NCBI GenBank assembly: GCA_038087875.1
Contig: CM075987.1
Span: 27,034,001-27,098,000, forward strand
Length of the DNA: 64,000 bases
Origin: Malacoraja senta
Lineage: Eukaryota
Direction of reading: 5' to 3'
A program made the translations under genes and the position numbers. Below, in pieces: positions 645 to 58,950 of this stretch (position 1 is its first letter; each line of letters begins with the position of its first letter). The notes below the pieces were generated by a model, which ran no database searches, was not told the DNA's origin, and saw nothing but the letters and a program-made list of their open reading frames with translations.

Positions 645-821
645 TCAAAGTATGGACACTGGAGGTTTGGAGAATCTTACATCTGAGGGGCCATCGAGAT
701 GGGAAGCCAGCTAAAAGGATGCAGAATATTGCTCAAGGTATTGACACTGGAGGTTTGGAGAATCTTACATCTGAGGGGCCATCGAGATGGGAAGCCAGCT
801 AAAAGGATGCAGAATATTGCT
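645..821. repeat. 88-bp tandem duplication of unique sequence
   Basis: 655-733 is identical to 743-821. Confidence 0.95.
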
Positions 822-3210: not shown

Positions 3211-3245
3211 GAATGAATGTAGCTGCCAATATAACATTGAACAGA

Positions 3246-3462
3246 AGGTAGACAAACCTGCTGGAGAAATTCAGCGGGTGCAGCAGCATCTATGGAGCGA
3301 AGGAAATAGGCAACGTTTCGGGCCGAAACCCTTCTTCAGACCCTTCTTCTTCGGCCCGAAATGTTGCCTATTTCCTTCACTCCATAGATGCTGCTGCACC
3401 CGCTGAGTTTCTCCAGCACTTTTGTCTACCTTCGATTTTCCAGCATCTGCAGTTCCTTCTTA
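3246..3462. mobile_element. Palindromic Penelope-derived mini-insertion (two inverted terminal modules)
   Basis: Arms are reverse complements. Flanked by a perfect 15-bp direct repeat ATAACATTGAACAGA (3231-3245, 3463-3477). Confidence 0.8.
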
Positions 3463-42394: not shown

Positions 42395-43209
42395 TAAATG
42401 TTGGGATAGTCCCCACCTCAACTACCTCCTCTGGCAGCTTGTTCCATACACCCACCACCTTATGTGTGAAAGAGTCACCCCTCAGATTCCTATTAAATCT
42501 TTTCCCTTCACCTTAAACCTATGTCCTCTGGTCCTCGATTCATGAGAGGAATGCATCTACCCGATCTATTCCTCTCATGATTTGATACACCTCTACAATA
42601 TAACTCTATTGCTGCGCCACCGTGCCGCCCCAAGTAAGTTCTAACTAATCTTTGTAAAGCGTTTATTTGTCCTGGAAGGTGAAAAGGATGATAAGCAATG
42701 TTTATTCCACTGCAGATACTGATGTCCCTTTTATTCTAATGTGTATGTGAGCCAATTCATGTGTTTCTTGATGATTACATTTTTATTTAAATAATCTCAC
42801 AATCTTCTTGCTAATGAGATTTAGAACATTAGTTGCAGTTGTCCTTGCTCAATCTGTGAGACAAATTGGAATCGTTAAAAAGATGGTTAGTCACACATGA
42901 GAGAGGTGGGGGGGGGGGTGTGGGGTAGCTGCGATATTTAAATCCCATTCCCAACAAAATAGAATTGTGTCCTTGCAATGAAGTGATGGCTGGATGAATT
43001 TTGTGAAGAGGTCGGAAGAGAGGGATAGCCACGAGAGATGCGCGAAGAACAAGGTGAATAGGGAGCACTTCTGAACAGAGTATCACGCGTATCATAAGGT
43101 CATAAGTGATAGAAGCAGAATTAGGCCAATCGGTCCATCGAGTCTGCTCCGCCATTCAATCATGGCTGATCTATCTCTCCCTCCTAACCCCATTCTCCTG
43201 CCTTCTCCC

Positions 43210-43352
43210 TTCTTCTTCCCCTTGCGTGTGGCGTGCACAGCCTAATGTTGTAGGACAACTTGTTCTATTTGATCTTATTTGATTGTGCACGCCAGGTTGA
43301 TTGCATTCGTCGAAACAGGGCGGACCACGTGAAGGTTGCAATCTCCCACCCC
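43210..43352 (-). mobile_element. Short retroposon, family A copy 1 (HDV-like ribozyme head, (GAA)n tail)
   Basis: 12-bp TSD CTGCCTTCTCCC (43198-43209, 43353-43364) inside a CR1 3'UTR; near-identical to 53876-54018. Confidence 0.9.
43299..43352 (-). ncRNA. Predicted minimal HDV/CPEB3-like self-cleaving ribozyme (54 nt)
   Basis: GGGGUGG-GA-GAUUGCA-ACC-UUCACGU-GGU-CCGCCCU-GU-UUCGA-CGAA-UGCAAUC parses as P1, J1/2, P2, P3, L3, P3', P1', P1.1, mini-P4, J4/2, P2'. Confidence 0.82.
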
Positions 43353-44098
43353 CTGCCTTCTCCCCATAACCCCCGACACCCGTACTAATCAAGAATCTAT
43401 CTATCTCTGCCTTCAAAATACCCATTGACTTGGACCTCCACAGCCTTCTGTGCCAAAGATGTCCACAGATTCACCACCCTCTGACTAAAGATATTCCTCC
43501 TCATCTCCTTCCTAAAGGTACGTCCTTTAATTCTGAGGCTGTGACCTCTAGTTCTATTTCCGCGCTGCATCTCAAAGCTAAACTAAACTAAATGTAAAAT
43601 CCCAGCTCCCTTGGGCCACACACGATTCCAGCAGGGTAAAACCATCATCTATTACATTGGTGTGGTACATCATAATACAACGTTGGTTGTCTCTCCTGTG
43701 GAAAGGCGATTGCTATTATTGCACTCCTGCTGTGAACAGGAGTCGAAATCACATCCAGAAGAATAAATACACTTGTTTAGGAATTATTCTTTGAGAGAGC
43801 GGTGTGTGGAATCGATGCAATCATGGCTTCTGGGATGTAAACACAAACAGATGTGGCGTGCTCTGTACATCACTCCAAGGCCACACAAAGATGGGTCTCT
43901 TAGAAGAGTCGGGTTCAACTGGTCTGGCAGGATAGTCGAACATAAAACAAAAAGAACAGAAAATGCTGCAAGTTCTGACAAAGTGTCCAGGACCCAAAGT
44001 ATTAACTCCTTCTCTTTCCACAGATGCTGCCGAACCTGCTGGGTGCTTCCGCAATTTTTACCTTTTACAGACGGGTATTATCCTGGCCAGTCATGGCA

Positions 44099-51500: not shown

Positions 51501-53875
51501 GAGAATGGATCAATACATGAATTTAGCATCTCGGTTATTAATACGATCAATAAGTCAAGAAGATGCATTTCTAAACCTCTCTCTCAGCTGTCTACCACTG
51601 ATACAGCTGATATGATGGTTGGAAAGGAAAAGCAGTGGCGATGAAAATCACTACAAAAAGGAAATGACTTGAGATTCTGTTGTCAGTTTAGACGCTCATG
51701 CTATCTTCATGTTCATAAGCTCTCGGAGCAGAATTAGACACCCTCGTAAATCTGACAATATCTTTTTCTGCATTTACGCGATCTATTCCTCTCCTAATTT
51801 TGTAATCCTTTATAAGTTTGTTAGTGATAGGAGCAGAATTAAGCCATTCGGCCCATCAAGTCCACCCTGCCATTCAATCTACCTCTCCCTCCTAACCCCA
51901 TTCTCCTGCCTTCTCCCCATAACCCCTGACACCCGCACTAATCAAGGATCTGTATATCTTCATCTTAAAAATATCCTTTGACTTCTGTGGCAATGAATTC
52001 CACAGATTCAATACACAATTTATGTCCATAAATCATAGGAACAGAATGAAGCCATTCGACCATAGAGTCTACTCCGCCATTCAAGAGAGAGCTAGATAGG
52101 GCTCTTAAAGATAGCGGAGTCAGGGGATATGGGGAAAAGGCAGGAATGGGGTACTGATTGGGGATGATCAGCCATGATCACATTGAATGGCGGTGCTGGC
52201 TCGAAGGGCCGAATGGCCTACTCCTGCACCTATTGTCTATCTCTAAACTAATCTAAACCCTTAGCGTATGATTGTGTTCTTGCACTCTGTGCCAGTGAGC
52301 AATGTGCCCTTCAATGAGCAGTGAGCAATGAGCTCCTGCACCTATTGTCTATTGTCTATTGTCAATCATGGCTGATCTATCTCTCCCTCCGAACCCCATT
52401 CTCTCGCCTTCTCCCCATAACCCCTGGCACCCGAACTAATGAAGAATCTATCACTTTGTGTCTATCTTTGGTATAAACCATATTCAGCAGTTGTTTCGAA
52501 ATAAATCAGGAGAATCCACCATTTAAGAATGTTTACCCAGAGTGTAGACAGTACATACTGTGCAGAAATATTACTCTTATTTTTTTTATCAATTGCATAT
52601 CAAGTATGCAAACAGGCCATTTTAGTCCCTGTAGGGACATCTGATTATACAGATCAAATGCACGTTAATTATCCAATAGCTGTCACATTTAATCATCTTT
52701 CTCAATCTTTCGTACTGAAATGTGTGAATGGAAATGACACACTGGCAGGCAGCAATGCCTTGGGACATTCAAAACATTCTGAAGACAGACACAAAACGCT
52801 GGAGTAACTCAGCGGGTGAGGCAGCATCTATGGAGCGAAGGAATAGGTGACGTTTCGGGTCGAGAGAGTATCTCTCGACCCGAAACCCGCTGAGTATCTC
52901 CAGCATTTTTGGCTACCTTCTTCAGACTGAGAGTCAGGGGAGAGGGAGACGAGAGATATAAAAGGGTACGGTGTGAAAACGACAGATCAAAGGGGAAGTT
53001 GCACAAGGAAATGTAGAATGGTTTATTGTCAGCTGAGGGGAAGGTGACAACAGTCAGTAATATTTAATCTGTTGGACAGTGGATCTATGTAGGAAGGAAG
53101 ATGCTGGTTTAAACCGAAGATAGACACGAAAAGCTTGAGTAACTCAGCGGGTCAGGAAGCATCTCTGGAGAAGAGGAATGGGCGACGTTCCGGGTCGAGA
53201 CCCTTCTTCAGAACTGGTCGGAGAACTAGGATGGGGGAGGGATGGAGAGAGAGAGGGAAAGCAAGAGTTATTTGAAGTTAGAGACATCAATATTCGTACC
53301 GCTGGGTTGTAAGCTGCCCAGGCGAAATCAAGACATCCTTCTGGTCGAGAGAATGGAAAATATTTTTTCTCAGGAGGCCTTAGCAAGTGTTTTAGAAAGT
53401 CCAGGAGCTTGCTAGGTGATTAGCACGGACTCTACAGCTCTGCCAAGGAAAAATGCCAAGAGTTCGATCTTGAGAAAAGGCAGCAACACTTCTTTCTCTG
53501 TGCTAATGAAATGCTATTTCATCTTTCTGCTACATTCCTCCAGAGTTGCCGTTCCCCTGTATTCAACAAGCAATCAACCATCACACATGAGGAGTCCCAT
53601 GTCTGTGCAGCATAAAAGAAGATTCATTTTCAACACATATGCTGGGACCGGAACTGCTGATCTACTGAAAGGATTGAAATTTGAATGTGTGTGAGGGGTT
53701 TGGATGAAGGTGAGAATAGTATAATGTTCATAAGTCATAGGAGCAGAATTAGGCCATTCGGCCCATCAAGTCTACTCCGCCATTCAATCATGGCTGATCT
53801 ATCTCTCCCGCCTAACCCCATTCTCCTGCCTTCTCCCCATAACCCCTGACACCCGCACTAATCAAGAATCTATCT

Positions 53876-54018
53876 TCTTCTTCTTCTTGCGTATGGCGTG
53901 CACAGCCTAAAGTTGCAGGACAACTTGTTCTATTTGATCTTATTTGATTGTGCACGCCAGGGTTGATTGCATTTGTCGAAACAGGGTGGACCACGTGAAG
54001 GTTGCAATCTCCCACCCC
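53876..54018 (-). mobile_element. Short retroposon, family A copy 2 (HDV-like ribozyme head, (GAA)n tail)
   Basis: 12-bp TSD AAGAATCTATCT (53864-53875, 54019-54030) inside a CR1 3'UTR. Confidence 0.9.
53965..54018 (-). ncRNA. Predicted minimal HDV/CPEB3-like ribozyme (54 nt)
   Basis: GGGGUGG-GA-GAUUGCA-ACC-UUCACGU-GGU-CCACCCU-GU-UUCGA-CAAA-UGCAAUC. Confidence 0.82.
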
Positions 54019-54377
54019 AAGAATCTATCTATCTCTGCCTTAAAAATACCCAATGACTTGGGTATACCCTCCACAGTCTTCTGTGGCAATGAATTCTGCA
54101 GATTCACCACCCTCCGACTAAAGAAATACCTCCTAATCTCCTTCCTAAAGAAACGTCCTTTAATTCTGAGTATGACATCTGATCCCAGACTCTCCCACAT
54201 GTGGAAACATCCTCTCCACATCCACTCTATCCAGGCCTGTAATACATCACCACAGAAAGAAGGGGGCTATTTTCTCAGCTCTCTCTTGCTTTAATTAGTG
54301 TGCCTATATTTCAGATGAGTTGGCCTTTGCTTAGTTTACTGACATTAGGCTTGAAATCACTCCAGACTCCAGAGTAC

Positions 54378-56133: not shown

Positions 56134-58599
56134 TAAGGAATAGAGACCTAGCCTGCTTAAACTCTCCCTGTAGCTCAGAAACTTGAGTTCTGGCAACATC
56201 CTCGTAAATCTTCTCTGTGCCCTTTTCCAGTAGTGCAGCCTATGGACTGTTGACTGGTGCATGATTTCATTAGCCATCCACTGTCAACATCTATAGAAGT
56301 CCAACATCAAGTTAAACAGAGAACATATTGAAACAGCGGGACCACAACATTATTCCCTTGTCATGTATCTGTGCACTGTGCTCGATTGTAATCTTTGCGC
56401 TGACTGGTTAGTACGCTACCAAAGCTTTTCACTGTACCTCGTTAGACGTGACAATAAACTAATCTGAACTGAAGAGGCATTTAAAACCTAATTGAGCCTA
56501 AATCTATTTGAGTTTCAATCAGAACCAACTGAGAAGCCATCAATATCAAACTTGTCCATGGACTATTGCGAGTTAGATTTTAGACTTTAGAGATACAACG
56601 CGGAAACAGGCCTTTCATCCCACCGAGTCCGTGCCGACCAGCGTACACTAACTTGCACACATCAGGGAGAATATTGAGCCTTGGACTATCCTTGATCAGA
56701 CTTTGCTGGATTTACCTTGCACTAAACATTATTCCCTTATCATGTATCTGTACACTGTAAATGGCTCAATTGTAATCATGTGTTGTCTTTCCGCTGACTG
56801 GATAGCACGCAACAAATGCTTTTCACTGTACCTCGGTACATGTGACAATAAACTAAACTAAACTGCATGGAAGAGTAAGAGGCGATGAGCATGAAATGGC
56901 CGTCACAGTTAAACGCTGCAGATATAGTGACGATGTTCCAGAATTTAAGTTGCTGCTTCGTTGTCGTATTCAGTGAGTGCAGGAAGGAACTACAGATGTT
57001 GGTTTAAACCGAAGATAGACACAAAATGCCAGAGTAACTCAGCGGGCATCTCTGGAGGAGAAGGAATGGGTGACGTTTCGGGTCGAGACCCTCGATTCCG
57101 TGAGTGTTGCTTTAAGACTAGCAGCACATGCCCAACTGCAAACCTTCTATTGTAGAAAGACACAAAATGACTTTAGACTTGAGAGGGACAGCGTGGAAAC
57201 AGGCCCTTCAGCCCACCGAGTCCGTGCTGACCAGCGATCATCCCGTACACAAGCACTATCCTACACACTAGAGATAACTTACAATTTTAAAAAGCCAATT
57301 AACCTAAAAACCTGAGGCAGACAAAAATGCTGGAGAAACTCAGCGGGTTCTTCACCCATTCCTTCGCTCCGTAGATGCTGCCTCACCCGCTGAGTTTCTC
57401 CAGCATTTTTGTCCACCTTCGATTTTTCAAGCACCTGCAGTTCTTTCTTAAACCTAAAAACCTGTATGTCTTTGGAGTCTGGAAGGAAACCGGAGCTCCC
57501 GGAGAAACACACTCGGAGAAAAATGAATTGTTTAATTCTGGCGTTCGATGATATCAATCAATTTTATGTATTTTTCAAGGAACTTTTAATTACACCGAAA
57601 TAAGGATTTAATAGTTGAGCAGGGAACTTGAATGTGTTTTTCCACATTATTATTACACTACTAGTATTCAGCAAGAGTATTTTTATTTTTACAGCCAGAA
57701 CACAATTAACTTTTATGCTTCGGGACAGATTGATCTTGTAACTGCAATGGAATCGAGCCAAACTCGCTCGTCTCAAGAATGAGCAACTGCGCCTTGCGTG
57801 TAGTAGCAGAACGCTTGATTTATTAATTATCCTGCGTACAATAAATCTGGTGGAGTTTGGTATCAACCTGGAGCAGTTTAGTAAGTTGCTGCAAGCCAAG
57901 GCACTCAACTCAATCTGAAATCAAAACAACCTACTTGGAGTGTTCCATTGGTGATCTAACTGCAAACCGTGGAGGAGAAGGGGAACAGGAATATCAAGTC
58001 AAGAGTGTTTTATTGTCATGTGTCCCAGATAGAACAATGACATTCTAACTTGCAGCAGCACGACACAATATGGAAACCTTGTACACTGTAAACAATATAA
58101 TAATCGAGAAAAAAAAGTGTGTATACTCACACACACACACACACATATATATATTATATATGTATATATGTTTAAGAAGGAACTGCAGATGCTGGAAAAA
58201 TCAACGGTAATAATAATAATAATAATAATCATTTTATTTACTGGCGCTTTTCTAAAACCCAAGGACACCTTACAATGTATAGAATCACAAAAAAAAATAC
58301 AAAACCCATAATCGGAATAAATTAAATATAAAAACACCACAGTACACAAATCAAGGACAGAATTCAATTTCAAGAGCACCAAAAGAAAATAAGAAACACA
58401 AAGGTAGATAGAAATGCTGGAGAAACTCAGTGGGTGAGGCAGCATCTAAGGAGCGAAGGAATAGGTGACGTTTCGGGTCGAGACCCTTCTTCAGACCCTT
58501 CTTCAAACAGGTCGAGAAAAGGGTCTCGACCCGAAACGTCACCTATTCCTTCGCTCCATAGATGCTGCCTCACCCACTGAGTTTCTCCAGCATTTTAAT

Positions 58600-58950
58600 C
58601 TATATATATACACACACACATATACACATAGATGCAAATAAACAAAGGTAAAAACAAGTAATATTCGTGCAATAATAACAATAACAGTCTATTGTAGTTC
58701 AGAGCTTGTTTGAGGTTGTGGTGGTTTAATAGCCTGATGGCTGTAGGGAAGAAGCTGTTCCTGAACCTGGATGTTACAGTTTTCAGGCTCCTGTACCTTC
58801 TTCCCGATGGCAGGGACGGAATGAGTGTGTGGCCAGGGTGGTGTGGGTCTTTGATGATGCTGGCTGCCTTTTTGAGGCAACGACTCCGGTAAATCCCATC
58901 GATGGAGGGGAGGTCAGAGCCTGTGATGGACTGGACAGTCTTCACAACTT
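58600..58950 (-). mobile_element. Rex1/Babar-like LINE 3' end
   Basis: LPSIDGIYRSRCLKKAASIIKDPHHPGH...RFRNSFFPTAIRLLN. Confidence 0.82.

What the first reader, a model, noticed from the sequence alone, without database searches (positions are those of the whole stretch)
53876..54018. Second independent full-length copy with the same 5' end and structure-preserving changes
Seen: it has its own 12-bp TSD (AAGAATCTATCT), so it is a separate retrotransposition, and it again starts exactly at G1. The ribozyme differs from copy 1 at two positions only: the P1 U-G pair becomes U-A, and J4/2 CGAA becomes CAAA with the C kept. Both copies lie in the same CR1 3'UTR family, same orientation, about 45 bp apart on the CR1 consensus. 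Inference: the 5' end is set by self-cleavage, and the target may be primed at purine-rich sites resembling the GAA tail. Two changes are too few to be statistically decisive, and both could be CpG transitions.
Basis: partly seen in the sequence, partly recalled or inferred. Interest (0 to 1): 0.75.

Follow-up and report, generated by a model that had tools for sequence, protein, structure and literature searches.

The report
Ribozyme-headed miniature Vingi-type retrotransposon
This 143-base stretch is one of at least 9,000 copies of a tiny jumping element made of the two ends of a longer retrotransposon; it starts exactly at a very small predicted self-cutting RNA, and sister elements in the same genome start with near-matches of the mammalian CPEB3 ribozyme, which likely descends from such an element.

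Summary
The copy is real: minus strand, own 12-bp TSD, starts at G1 of a 54-nt P4-less HDV-type fold. It belongs to a family of at least 9,000 copies. I found the parent in the same genome: a ~3.1-kb single-ORF APE-RT LINE of Vingi type. The element is that LINE's first ~78 and last ~38 bases plus an (AAG)n tail. In a 3'-anchored sample, 80 of 90 copies start within 3 nt of G1.

The two ribozyme changes occur at CpG-decay frequency. The host site is CR1 ORF2 coding sequence, not 3'UTR, with the sites 38 bp apart. CR1 is not targeted (7 of 87 vs 6.3% background). Priming uses 1-3 nt of microhomology, not purine-rich tracts.

The fold is supported by 8-10 compensatory pair changes against sister families. 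Those families pass Rfam's CPEB3 cut-off (up to 64 bits), so the mammalian CPEB3 ribozyme likely came from a Vingi-type 5' end. Cleavage is untested. The scan noted this kind of element before on other genomes (29 notes).

The parts
53876..54018 (-). Copy 2 of the non-autonomous element: 133-nt body plus (AAG)n tail
   Evidence: family of at least 9,159 matches
53965..54018 (-). 54-nt P4-less HDV/CPEB3-type fold (P1 7 bp with G1-U wobble, P2 7 bp, P3 3 bp, 7-nt L3, one-pair P1.1, 5-nt linker in place of P4, predicted catalytic C44); cleavage untested
   Evidence: descriptor; covariation; weak Rfam HDV-F-prausnitzii match, 15.9 bits, below cut-off
53940..54018 (-). Part derived from the 5'UTR of the Vingi-type LINE (element 1-78, about 92-94% identical)
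   Evidence: L264, L275, L281, L284
53924..53939 (-). A-rich junction segment, not matched to the LINE; looks like a short local duplication
53886..53923 (-). Part derived from the LINE 3' end: last ORF codons, stop codon and ~18-nt 3'UTR (element 96-133)
   Evidence: L274, L275, L277
53874..53888 (-). (AAG)5 tail; its end overlaps the TSD (microhomology)
   Evidence: family pattern
53949..53959 (-). 5' arm of an 11-bp inverted repeat (from the LINE 5' part)
53894..53904 (-). 3' arm of the 11-bp inverted repeat (from the LINE 3' end)
53864..53875 (.). Target-site duplication, left copy
54019..54030 (.). Target-site duplication, right copy
53728..54240 (-). Host: decayed CR1 ORF2 C-terminus and start of the 3'UTR (stop codon at about 53812-53814), interrupted by the element; a chance host
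43210..43352 (-). Copy 1 of the same family, TSD 43198-43209 / 43353-43364

Best explanation
This is one copy of an abundant non-autonomous retroposon built from the first ~78 and last ~38 bases of a ~3.1-kb Vingi-type LINE present in the same genome; its RNA is likely cut free at G1 by the predicted minimal HDV-type ribozyme and likely copied into new sites by the LINE's protein. Steps: (1) shown: internal deletion joined the LINE's two ends, at least four separate times. (2) Inferred: a copy is transcribed by read-through or from an internal promoter, and the 54-nt fold cleaves 5' of G1, leaving an uncapped, uniform 5' end. (3) Inferred: the LINE's APE-RT protein recognises the 3' end (possibly helped by the 11-bp pairing of the two ends), nicks DNA with little sequence preference and primes reverse transcription on the (AAG)n tail. 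(4) Shown footprint: 1-3 nt tail-target microhomology, 8-16-bp TSDs (mode 11-12), dispersed sites, T before G1 in 41 of 63. After insertion, copies decay neutrally.
For: Parent found: L275 runs from the same ribozyme through an APE-RT ORF to the same 3' end and tail, inside one 11-bp TSD; L264, L274 and L277 agree. Pfam shows APE endonuclease, RVT_1 and a weak zf-RVT, and no RNase H. Closest homolog P0001 is 72% identical and 1019 aa; 66 of 87 homologs of 900-1100 aa end in a CCHC-like motif. Only 23-32% identity to the local RTE families. Junction types among 30 loci: 14, 6 and 3 short derivatives of three other junctions, 6 long, 1 interrupted. 5' ends 80 of 90 within 3 nt of G1. TSD lengths and microhomology. 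An extra lone G at the 5' junction in 0 of 57 copies (one GG, one duplicated start), which fits an uncapped RNA; the cap-G signature is recalled. Fold: against five sister-family ribozymes 8-10 of 17 pairs change on both sides, with 0-1 broken. Precedent: R2 SIDEs (PMC3414825, abstract), NARTc/L1Tc (PMC3383444, abstract; PMC4035085, passages), bipartite Vingi derivatives (PMC5786205, passages and section 7 part 1).
Against: No cleavage or expression data: no RNA holder was listed and the laid runs are contigs of uncertain type. The fold itself has no Rfam hit over cut-off. All four long copies examined are frameshifted, 85-91% identical to L264, and only 24 candidates carry the ORF start. Young short copies are ~4% from their majority and carry changes absent from these LINE copies, so the mobilising copy was not seen. 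No named Vingi or Ingi reference was aligned.
Confidence: 0.88

Rival explanations
1. Same origin, but the uniform 5' end is a transcription start from an internal promoter (as for Pr77 of L1Tc/NARTc); the P4-less fold is weak or no longer cleaves.
For: In L1Tc the same 77 nt are both promoter and ribozyme (PMC3383444, abstract). A short RNA is copied in full whatever made its end. No Rfam score over cut-off.
Against: All 17 pairs and the predicted catalytic C are intact in both window copies and in LINE copy L281. A second P4-less family keeps the same geometry with 10 double changes. No lone extra G at 57 junctions.
Confidence: 0.15
2. The element is mobilised by an RTE LINE of this genome (RTE-A also ends in (AAG)n) rather than by the Vingi-type parent.
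For: RTE-A shares the tail repeat, and RTE-A and RTE-B 5' ends share the P2-P3-L3 core (17 of 19 and 19 of 21 nt). The Vingi-type copies seen are broken.
Against: Neither RTE family shares the element's 3' end, while the Vingi-type LINE shares both ends.
Confidence: 0.05
3. The element targets CR1 3' ends.
For: Both window copies sit in the same CR1 family, same orientation, 38 bp apart on the host.
Against: 7 of 87 genomic insertions (5 same, 2 opposite orientation) against 6.3% matched background, p=0.50. This CR1 segment covers 8.9% of the window.
Confidence: 0.03

Closest known systems
Non-autonomous internal-deletion derivatives of Vingi (e.g. of Vingi-1_EE; Kojima 2011 as cited in PMC5786205, passages; the 2011 paper was not held)
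   Same: 5' and 3' ends of a compact single-ORF APE-RT LINE without RNase H; several independent deletion families; no tRNA/5S/7SL head seen.
   Different: The head is a predicted ribozyme. [quoted passage not shown]
R2 SIDEs of Drosophila (PMC3414825, abstract)
   Same: 5' HDV-like ribozyme joined to the LINE 3' end; mobilised by target-primed reverse transcription.
   Different: R2 SIDEs are rDNA site-specific and rare. This family is dispersed, has at least 9,000 copies and uses an APE-type partner.
NARTc/L1Tc, RIME/ingi and SIDERs of trypanosomatids (PMC3383444 abstract; PMC4035085 passages)
   Same: Sister clade; the ribozyme cleaves 5' of nucleotide +1; short derivative of a long element.
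   Different: Their ~77-nt ribozyme has P4, and activity and promoter function are shown. Here the fold is 54 nt, P4-less, in an animal genome, and untested.
Minimal (P4-less) HDV-like and theta ribozymes (bioRxiv 10.1101/2023.06.13.544163, passages)
   Same: No P4; same core and catalytic C position.
   Different: Reported from gut phages and metagenomes, often next to tRNAs; that search found none in the eukaryotic genomes it covered. Here the fold heads a retroposon.
Mammalian CPEB3 ribozyme (Rfam RF00622)
   Same: Same 7-nt L3, one-pair P1.1, G1-U wobble and 7/2/7/3 geometry. Sister Vingi-type elements score 55-64 bits against a cut-off of 35.
   Different: This element's own stems differ in sequence and it lacks P4, so it does not hit RF00622. 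CPEB3's ribozyme is a single intronic locus.

Membership tests
Bipartite non-autonomous LINE (SIDE) | 5' part matches the 5' end of an autonomous LINE | tested here: met
   element 1-78 at 87-94% identity in long copies
Bipartite non-autonomous LINE (SIDE) | 3' part and tail match the same LINE's 3' end | tested here: met
   element 96-133 plus (AAG)n in L274, L275, L277
Bipartite non-autonomous LINE (SIDE) | Multiplied as a unit with TSDs | tested here: met
   9,159 matches, control 0; clean TSD of 8-16 bp in 67 of 87
Vingi clade (parent) | Compact single ORF with APE and RT, no RNase H (PMC13708176, passage) | tested here: met
   Pfam; ~3.1 kb, homologs ~1000 aa
Vingi clade (parent) | C-terminal CCHC-type zinc motif (feature recalled) | tested here: met
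   L264 C-terminus; 66 of 87 homologs
Vingi clade (parent) | RT phylogeny groups with named Vingi, sister to Ingi | not testable with these tools
   no named Vingi/Ingi reference obtained; PDB gave only L1, R2 and group II intron RTs
RTE clade (parent) | RT similarity and shared 3' end with RTE elements | tested here: not met
   23-32% identity; 3' ends differ
HDV-like ribozyme | Nested double pseudoknot P1, P1.1, P2, P3 with C in J4/2 | tested here: met
   8-10 double changes of 17 pairs
HDV-like ribozyme | Self-cleavage 5' of G1 that depends on the catalytic C | not testable with these tools
   needs an in vitro assay
Rfam CPEB3_ribozyme RF00622 | Score over the 35-bit cut-off (this element) | tested here: not met
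   no hit in the window; sister families meet it
Classical SINE (tRNA/7SL/5S head) | Small-RNA-derived Pol III head | tested here: not met
   no such Rfam match; the head maps to the LINE 5'UTR
Sequence-specific retrotransposon | Enrichment at one target repeat | tested here: not met
   7 of 87 vs 6.3%, p=0.50

The most novel reading that the evidence does not exclude
Vingi-type LINEs generally begin with a CPEB3-family ribozyme, including P4-less 54-nt versions that head thousands of mini-elements in a vertebrate genome, and the mammalian CPEB3 ribozyme is a domesticated 5' end of such an element. Tested here: a second Vingi-type family in this genome starts with an RF00622 match (9 of the 30 fetched loci run on in frame into long Vingi-type ORF matches; best match 64.2 bits). 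A complete TSD-flanked relative from a metagenome contig (L302) matches 35 of 39 core positions of the Rfam consensus (counted by eye). An older short repeat family of this genome also resembles CPEB3's P4 stem.
Probability: 0.65. Interest if true: 0.8.

Novelty: new variant of a known kind. Interest (0 to 1): 0.55.

Why it matters
The copy itself is ordinary, one of thousands. The family matters in three ways. It adds Vingi-type LINEs to the clades with a 5' HDV-like ribozyme. It places a P4-less 54-nt ribozyme, so far described from phages and metagenomes, in an animal genome at high copy number. It also gives a testable origin for the mammalian CPEB3 ribozyme, linked to memory but of unexplained origin in the papers I could see. 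A 132-nt natural element also marks the minimal end sequences needed by Vingi proteins, which are in use as RNA-templated gene writers (PMC13708176, passages).

Tried and rejected
Rfam over the window gave no ribozyme hit; the region alone gave one weak HDV-family match, 15.9 bits.

RTE-A and RTE-B were examined as partners through DUF6451 and rejected on their 3' ends. My descriptor did not complete an HDV fold on their 5' ends (0 of 4 and 0 of 17), so that question is open.

Three exclusion patterns found only variants, truncations and interrupted copies among the loci viewed (20 of 76, 20 of 60 and 25 of 239 matches). The parent came from following an older subfamily.

The samples were biased towards full length, so they were not used for the final statistics. 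From the 90-copy sample, 3 duplicated loci were dropped (87 left); subsets are 67 with a clean TSD, 50 with a definable tail end, 57 for the 5' junction and 78 near-full-length.

Lower non-CpG divergence in the ribozyme (2.9% vs 5.2%) is confounded by subfamily structure and is not used.

Expression: no RNA holder listed; one raw DNA run laid nothing, so no conclusion.

Relatives: only 2 of the 18 metagenome relatives judged to include a 5'UTR had the fold (0 of 180 shuffles). A looser scan of all 80 loci gave 6 hits against 5 in one shuffle, so only the four compact ones (L302, L306, L312, L357) were kept, and L312 and L357 were not tied to an ORF.

Kojima 2011 and Ruminski 2011 were not held and may already mention Vingi ribozymes; supplements of PMC5786205 were not read and Repbase is not searchable here.

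Literature searches (listings, plus the passages cited) showed no paper on Vingi ribozymes or a Vingi origin of CPEB3.

Full report
Observation. The window holds two copies of a short element on the minus strand, at 43210-43352 and 53876-54018, 94.4% identical. Each has its own 12-bp TSD, so they are independent insertions. Each begins with a 54-nt sequence that parses as an HDV-type nested double pseudoknot: P1 7 bp with a G1-U wobble, a 2-nt J1/2, P2 7 bp, P3 3 bp, a 7-nt L3, a one-pair P1.1, five bases in place of P4, and a C-led J4/2. These are the descriptor's only two hits in 128 kb of both strands. Rfam gives no hit over cut-off; the best match is 15.9 bits to an HDV family.

Both sites lie in the final codons of CR1 ORF2, not the 3'UTR, and are 38 bp apart on the host. 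The two ribozyme differences are CpG transitions. In 78 near-full-length copies the ribozyme's CpG positions diverge at 16.5%. A32 and A45 occur in 12 of 58 and 12 of 61 ungapped young-subfamily copies, and the predicted catalytic C44 is T in 7 of 77. A32 is also the state of the parent LINE and the older subfamily.

Family. The window's genome (G000, 1.94 Gb) has 9,159 matches to the 3' 25-mer with up to two mismatches, control 0. This is a lower bound on the family and includes LINE 3' ends. Near-identical sequence is held in runs of seven coded organisms. I took the first 90 exact matches on contig 1, chosen by the 3' end only. Of these, 66 align from G1, 11 from position 2, 3 from position 3, and 10 are truncated or internally deleted. 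After dropping 3 duplicated loci, 67 of 87 have a clean TSD of 8-16 bp, mode 11-12. Tail-target microhomology averages 1.76 nt against 0.37 at control sites (48 of 50 have at least 1 nt), usually after a pyrimidine; the rest of the TSD has ordinary purine content. The base before G1 is T in 41 of 63, against 27.5% background. Insertions in the CR1 3' segment are 7 of 87 against 6.3% expected (p=0.50). At 57 junctions starting at G1, 43 are flush or overlap by G and 14 carry 1-6 extra or mismatched bases; none is a lone G. That fits an uncapped RNA, given the recalled cap-G signature of capped templates.

Parent. Two RTE families were found first. Their 5' ends share the P2-P3-L3 core, and RTE-A shares the (AAG)n tail, but neither shares the 3' end. 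An older subfamily led to long elements. L264, L274, L275 and L277 carry element positions up to 78 at their 5' end (L274 from 43 only), then an APE-RT ORF, then the element's last 25-38 nt and the tail. L275 is bounded by one 11-bp TSD. The ORF has Exo_endo_phos, RVT_1 and a weak zf-RVT, and no RNase H. Homologs are ~1000-aa single ORFs on 3.1-3.6-kb contigs; the best is 72% identical. This matches the description of Vingi as a compact single-ORF APE element lacking RNase H (PMC13708176, passage), but no named reference was aligned, so I call it Vingi-type. The 3' part of the mini-element is the last codons, the stop and an ~18-nt UTR. At least four different deletion junctions gave multi-copy derivatives (and the main family). 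All four long copies are frameshifted and only 24 candidates carry the ORF start, so no active source was seen.

Is the fold real? Comparison across families is the informative test. RF00622 (CPEB3) has 51 matches among 59 scored candidates in this genome, 39 over cut-off, best 64.2 bits. Of 30 fetched loci, 9 continue into long Vingi-type ORF matches and form a second family. Six form another short family that is also P4-less, with the same geometry. Against five such representatives, 8-10 of the element's 17 base pairs change on both sides and 0-1 break. In metagenome relatives, 2 of 18 5'UTRs carry the fold against 0 of 180 shuffles. L302 is a complete element with TSD and tail that begins with a 55.6-bit CPEB3 match. 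An older short family (L379, L381, L383, L389) also resembles the CPEB3 P4 stem, but its partner LINE was not identified. The 3' half of the element folds into an 11-bp stem between the LINE-5' and LINE-3' parts. The 5' arm matches better in the young subfamily than in the LINE, but it contains a palindromic hexamer and its role is untested.

Mechanism. Shown: bipartite origin, dispersed insertion with TSDs and microhomology, uniform 5' end, conserved fold. Inferred: self-cleavage at G1 (about 0.8), trans-mobilisation by the Vingi-type protein (about 0.9). The main rival is an internal promoter, as in Pr77, which may coexist with cleavage (PMC3383444, abstract).

Known context. Ribozyme-headed internally deleted LINEs are known: R2 SIDEs (PMC3414825, abstract) and NARTc and SIDERs (PMC4035085, passages). 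Vingi deletion derivatives are known (PMC5786205, passages). Kojima's list of ribozyme-bearing clades omits Vingi, and P4-less forms were described from phages and metagenomes. Passages on CPEB3 in PMC8256844 and PMC10919898 give no transposon origin. My nine searches found no paper making the Vingi link, but Kojima 2011, Ruminski 2011 and Repbase were not visible. I reached the Vingi and CPEB3 readings before consulting earlier notes. The scan has 29 similar notes from at least five other genomes; they prompted and are not counted as evidence.

Verdict. A real but ordinary copy of a new variant of a known kind of element. The value lies in the family: a minimal ribozyme on Vingi-type elements and a testable origin for the CPEB3 ribozyme. 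Interest 0.55.

Noticed in passing
L085, L087, L091, L097, L225, L226, L228, L229, L230, L264 (element position ~107-110): A DNA-transposon-like insert with GGCCTGTCCCAC-type ends recurs at the same TTTA site near the 3' end of the element and of the parent LINE; it looks like Kolobok (name recalled).
   Followed up: partly
L278, L279, L280, L281, L283, L285, L286, L287: Eight of 16 long Vingi-type loci show an inverted internal segment next to the 5' end, resembling twin-priming inversions (term recalled).
   Followed up: no
L131, L132, L134, L139 (RTE-B); L171-L190 (RTE-A): Two RTE families begin with a P1-P3-L3-like core similar to this ribozyme, with the P1.1 pair apparently swapped C-G to G-C; my descriptor found no P2 partner, so the fold is unresolved.
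   Followed up: partly
L368, L369, L370, L371, L373, L374, L377, L378, L384, L387: A second, younger Vingi-type family (93-98% identical copies) headed by a CPEB3-family ribozyme with P4.
   Followed up: partly
L388, L390, L394-L397: Another short retroposon family of ~170 nt with an AAG tail and a P4-less ribozyme that passes the CPEB3 cut-off.
   Followed up: partly
L379, L381, L383, L389, L392; L372, L376, L380; L382, L385, L391, L393: Older short repeat families headed by CPEB3-like ribozymes; the first group also resembles the CPEB3 P4 stem; partners not found.
   Followed up: partly
L302:1117-4290 (metagenome contig): Complete Vingi-type element with a 14-bp TSD and (ATC)n tail, starting with a 55.6-bit CPEB3 match.
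   Followed up: yes
window 3244-3433 and 58401-58602: Long palindromes made of inverted halves of an abundant short repeat; they give below-cut-off miRNA matches in Rfam.
   Followed up: no
window 645-821: Tandem 89-bp duplication, 98% identical.
   Followed up: no
L082 and L224: Head-to-head nested copies of the element (L082) and a 2.27-kb tandem repeat carrying three identical copies (L224).
   Followed up: no
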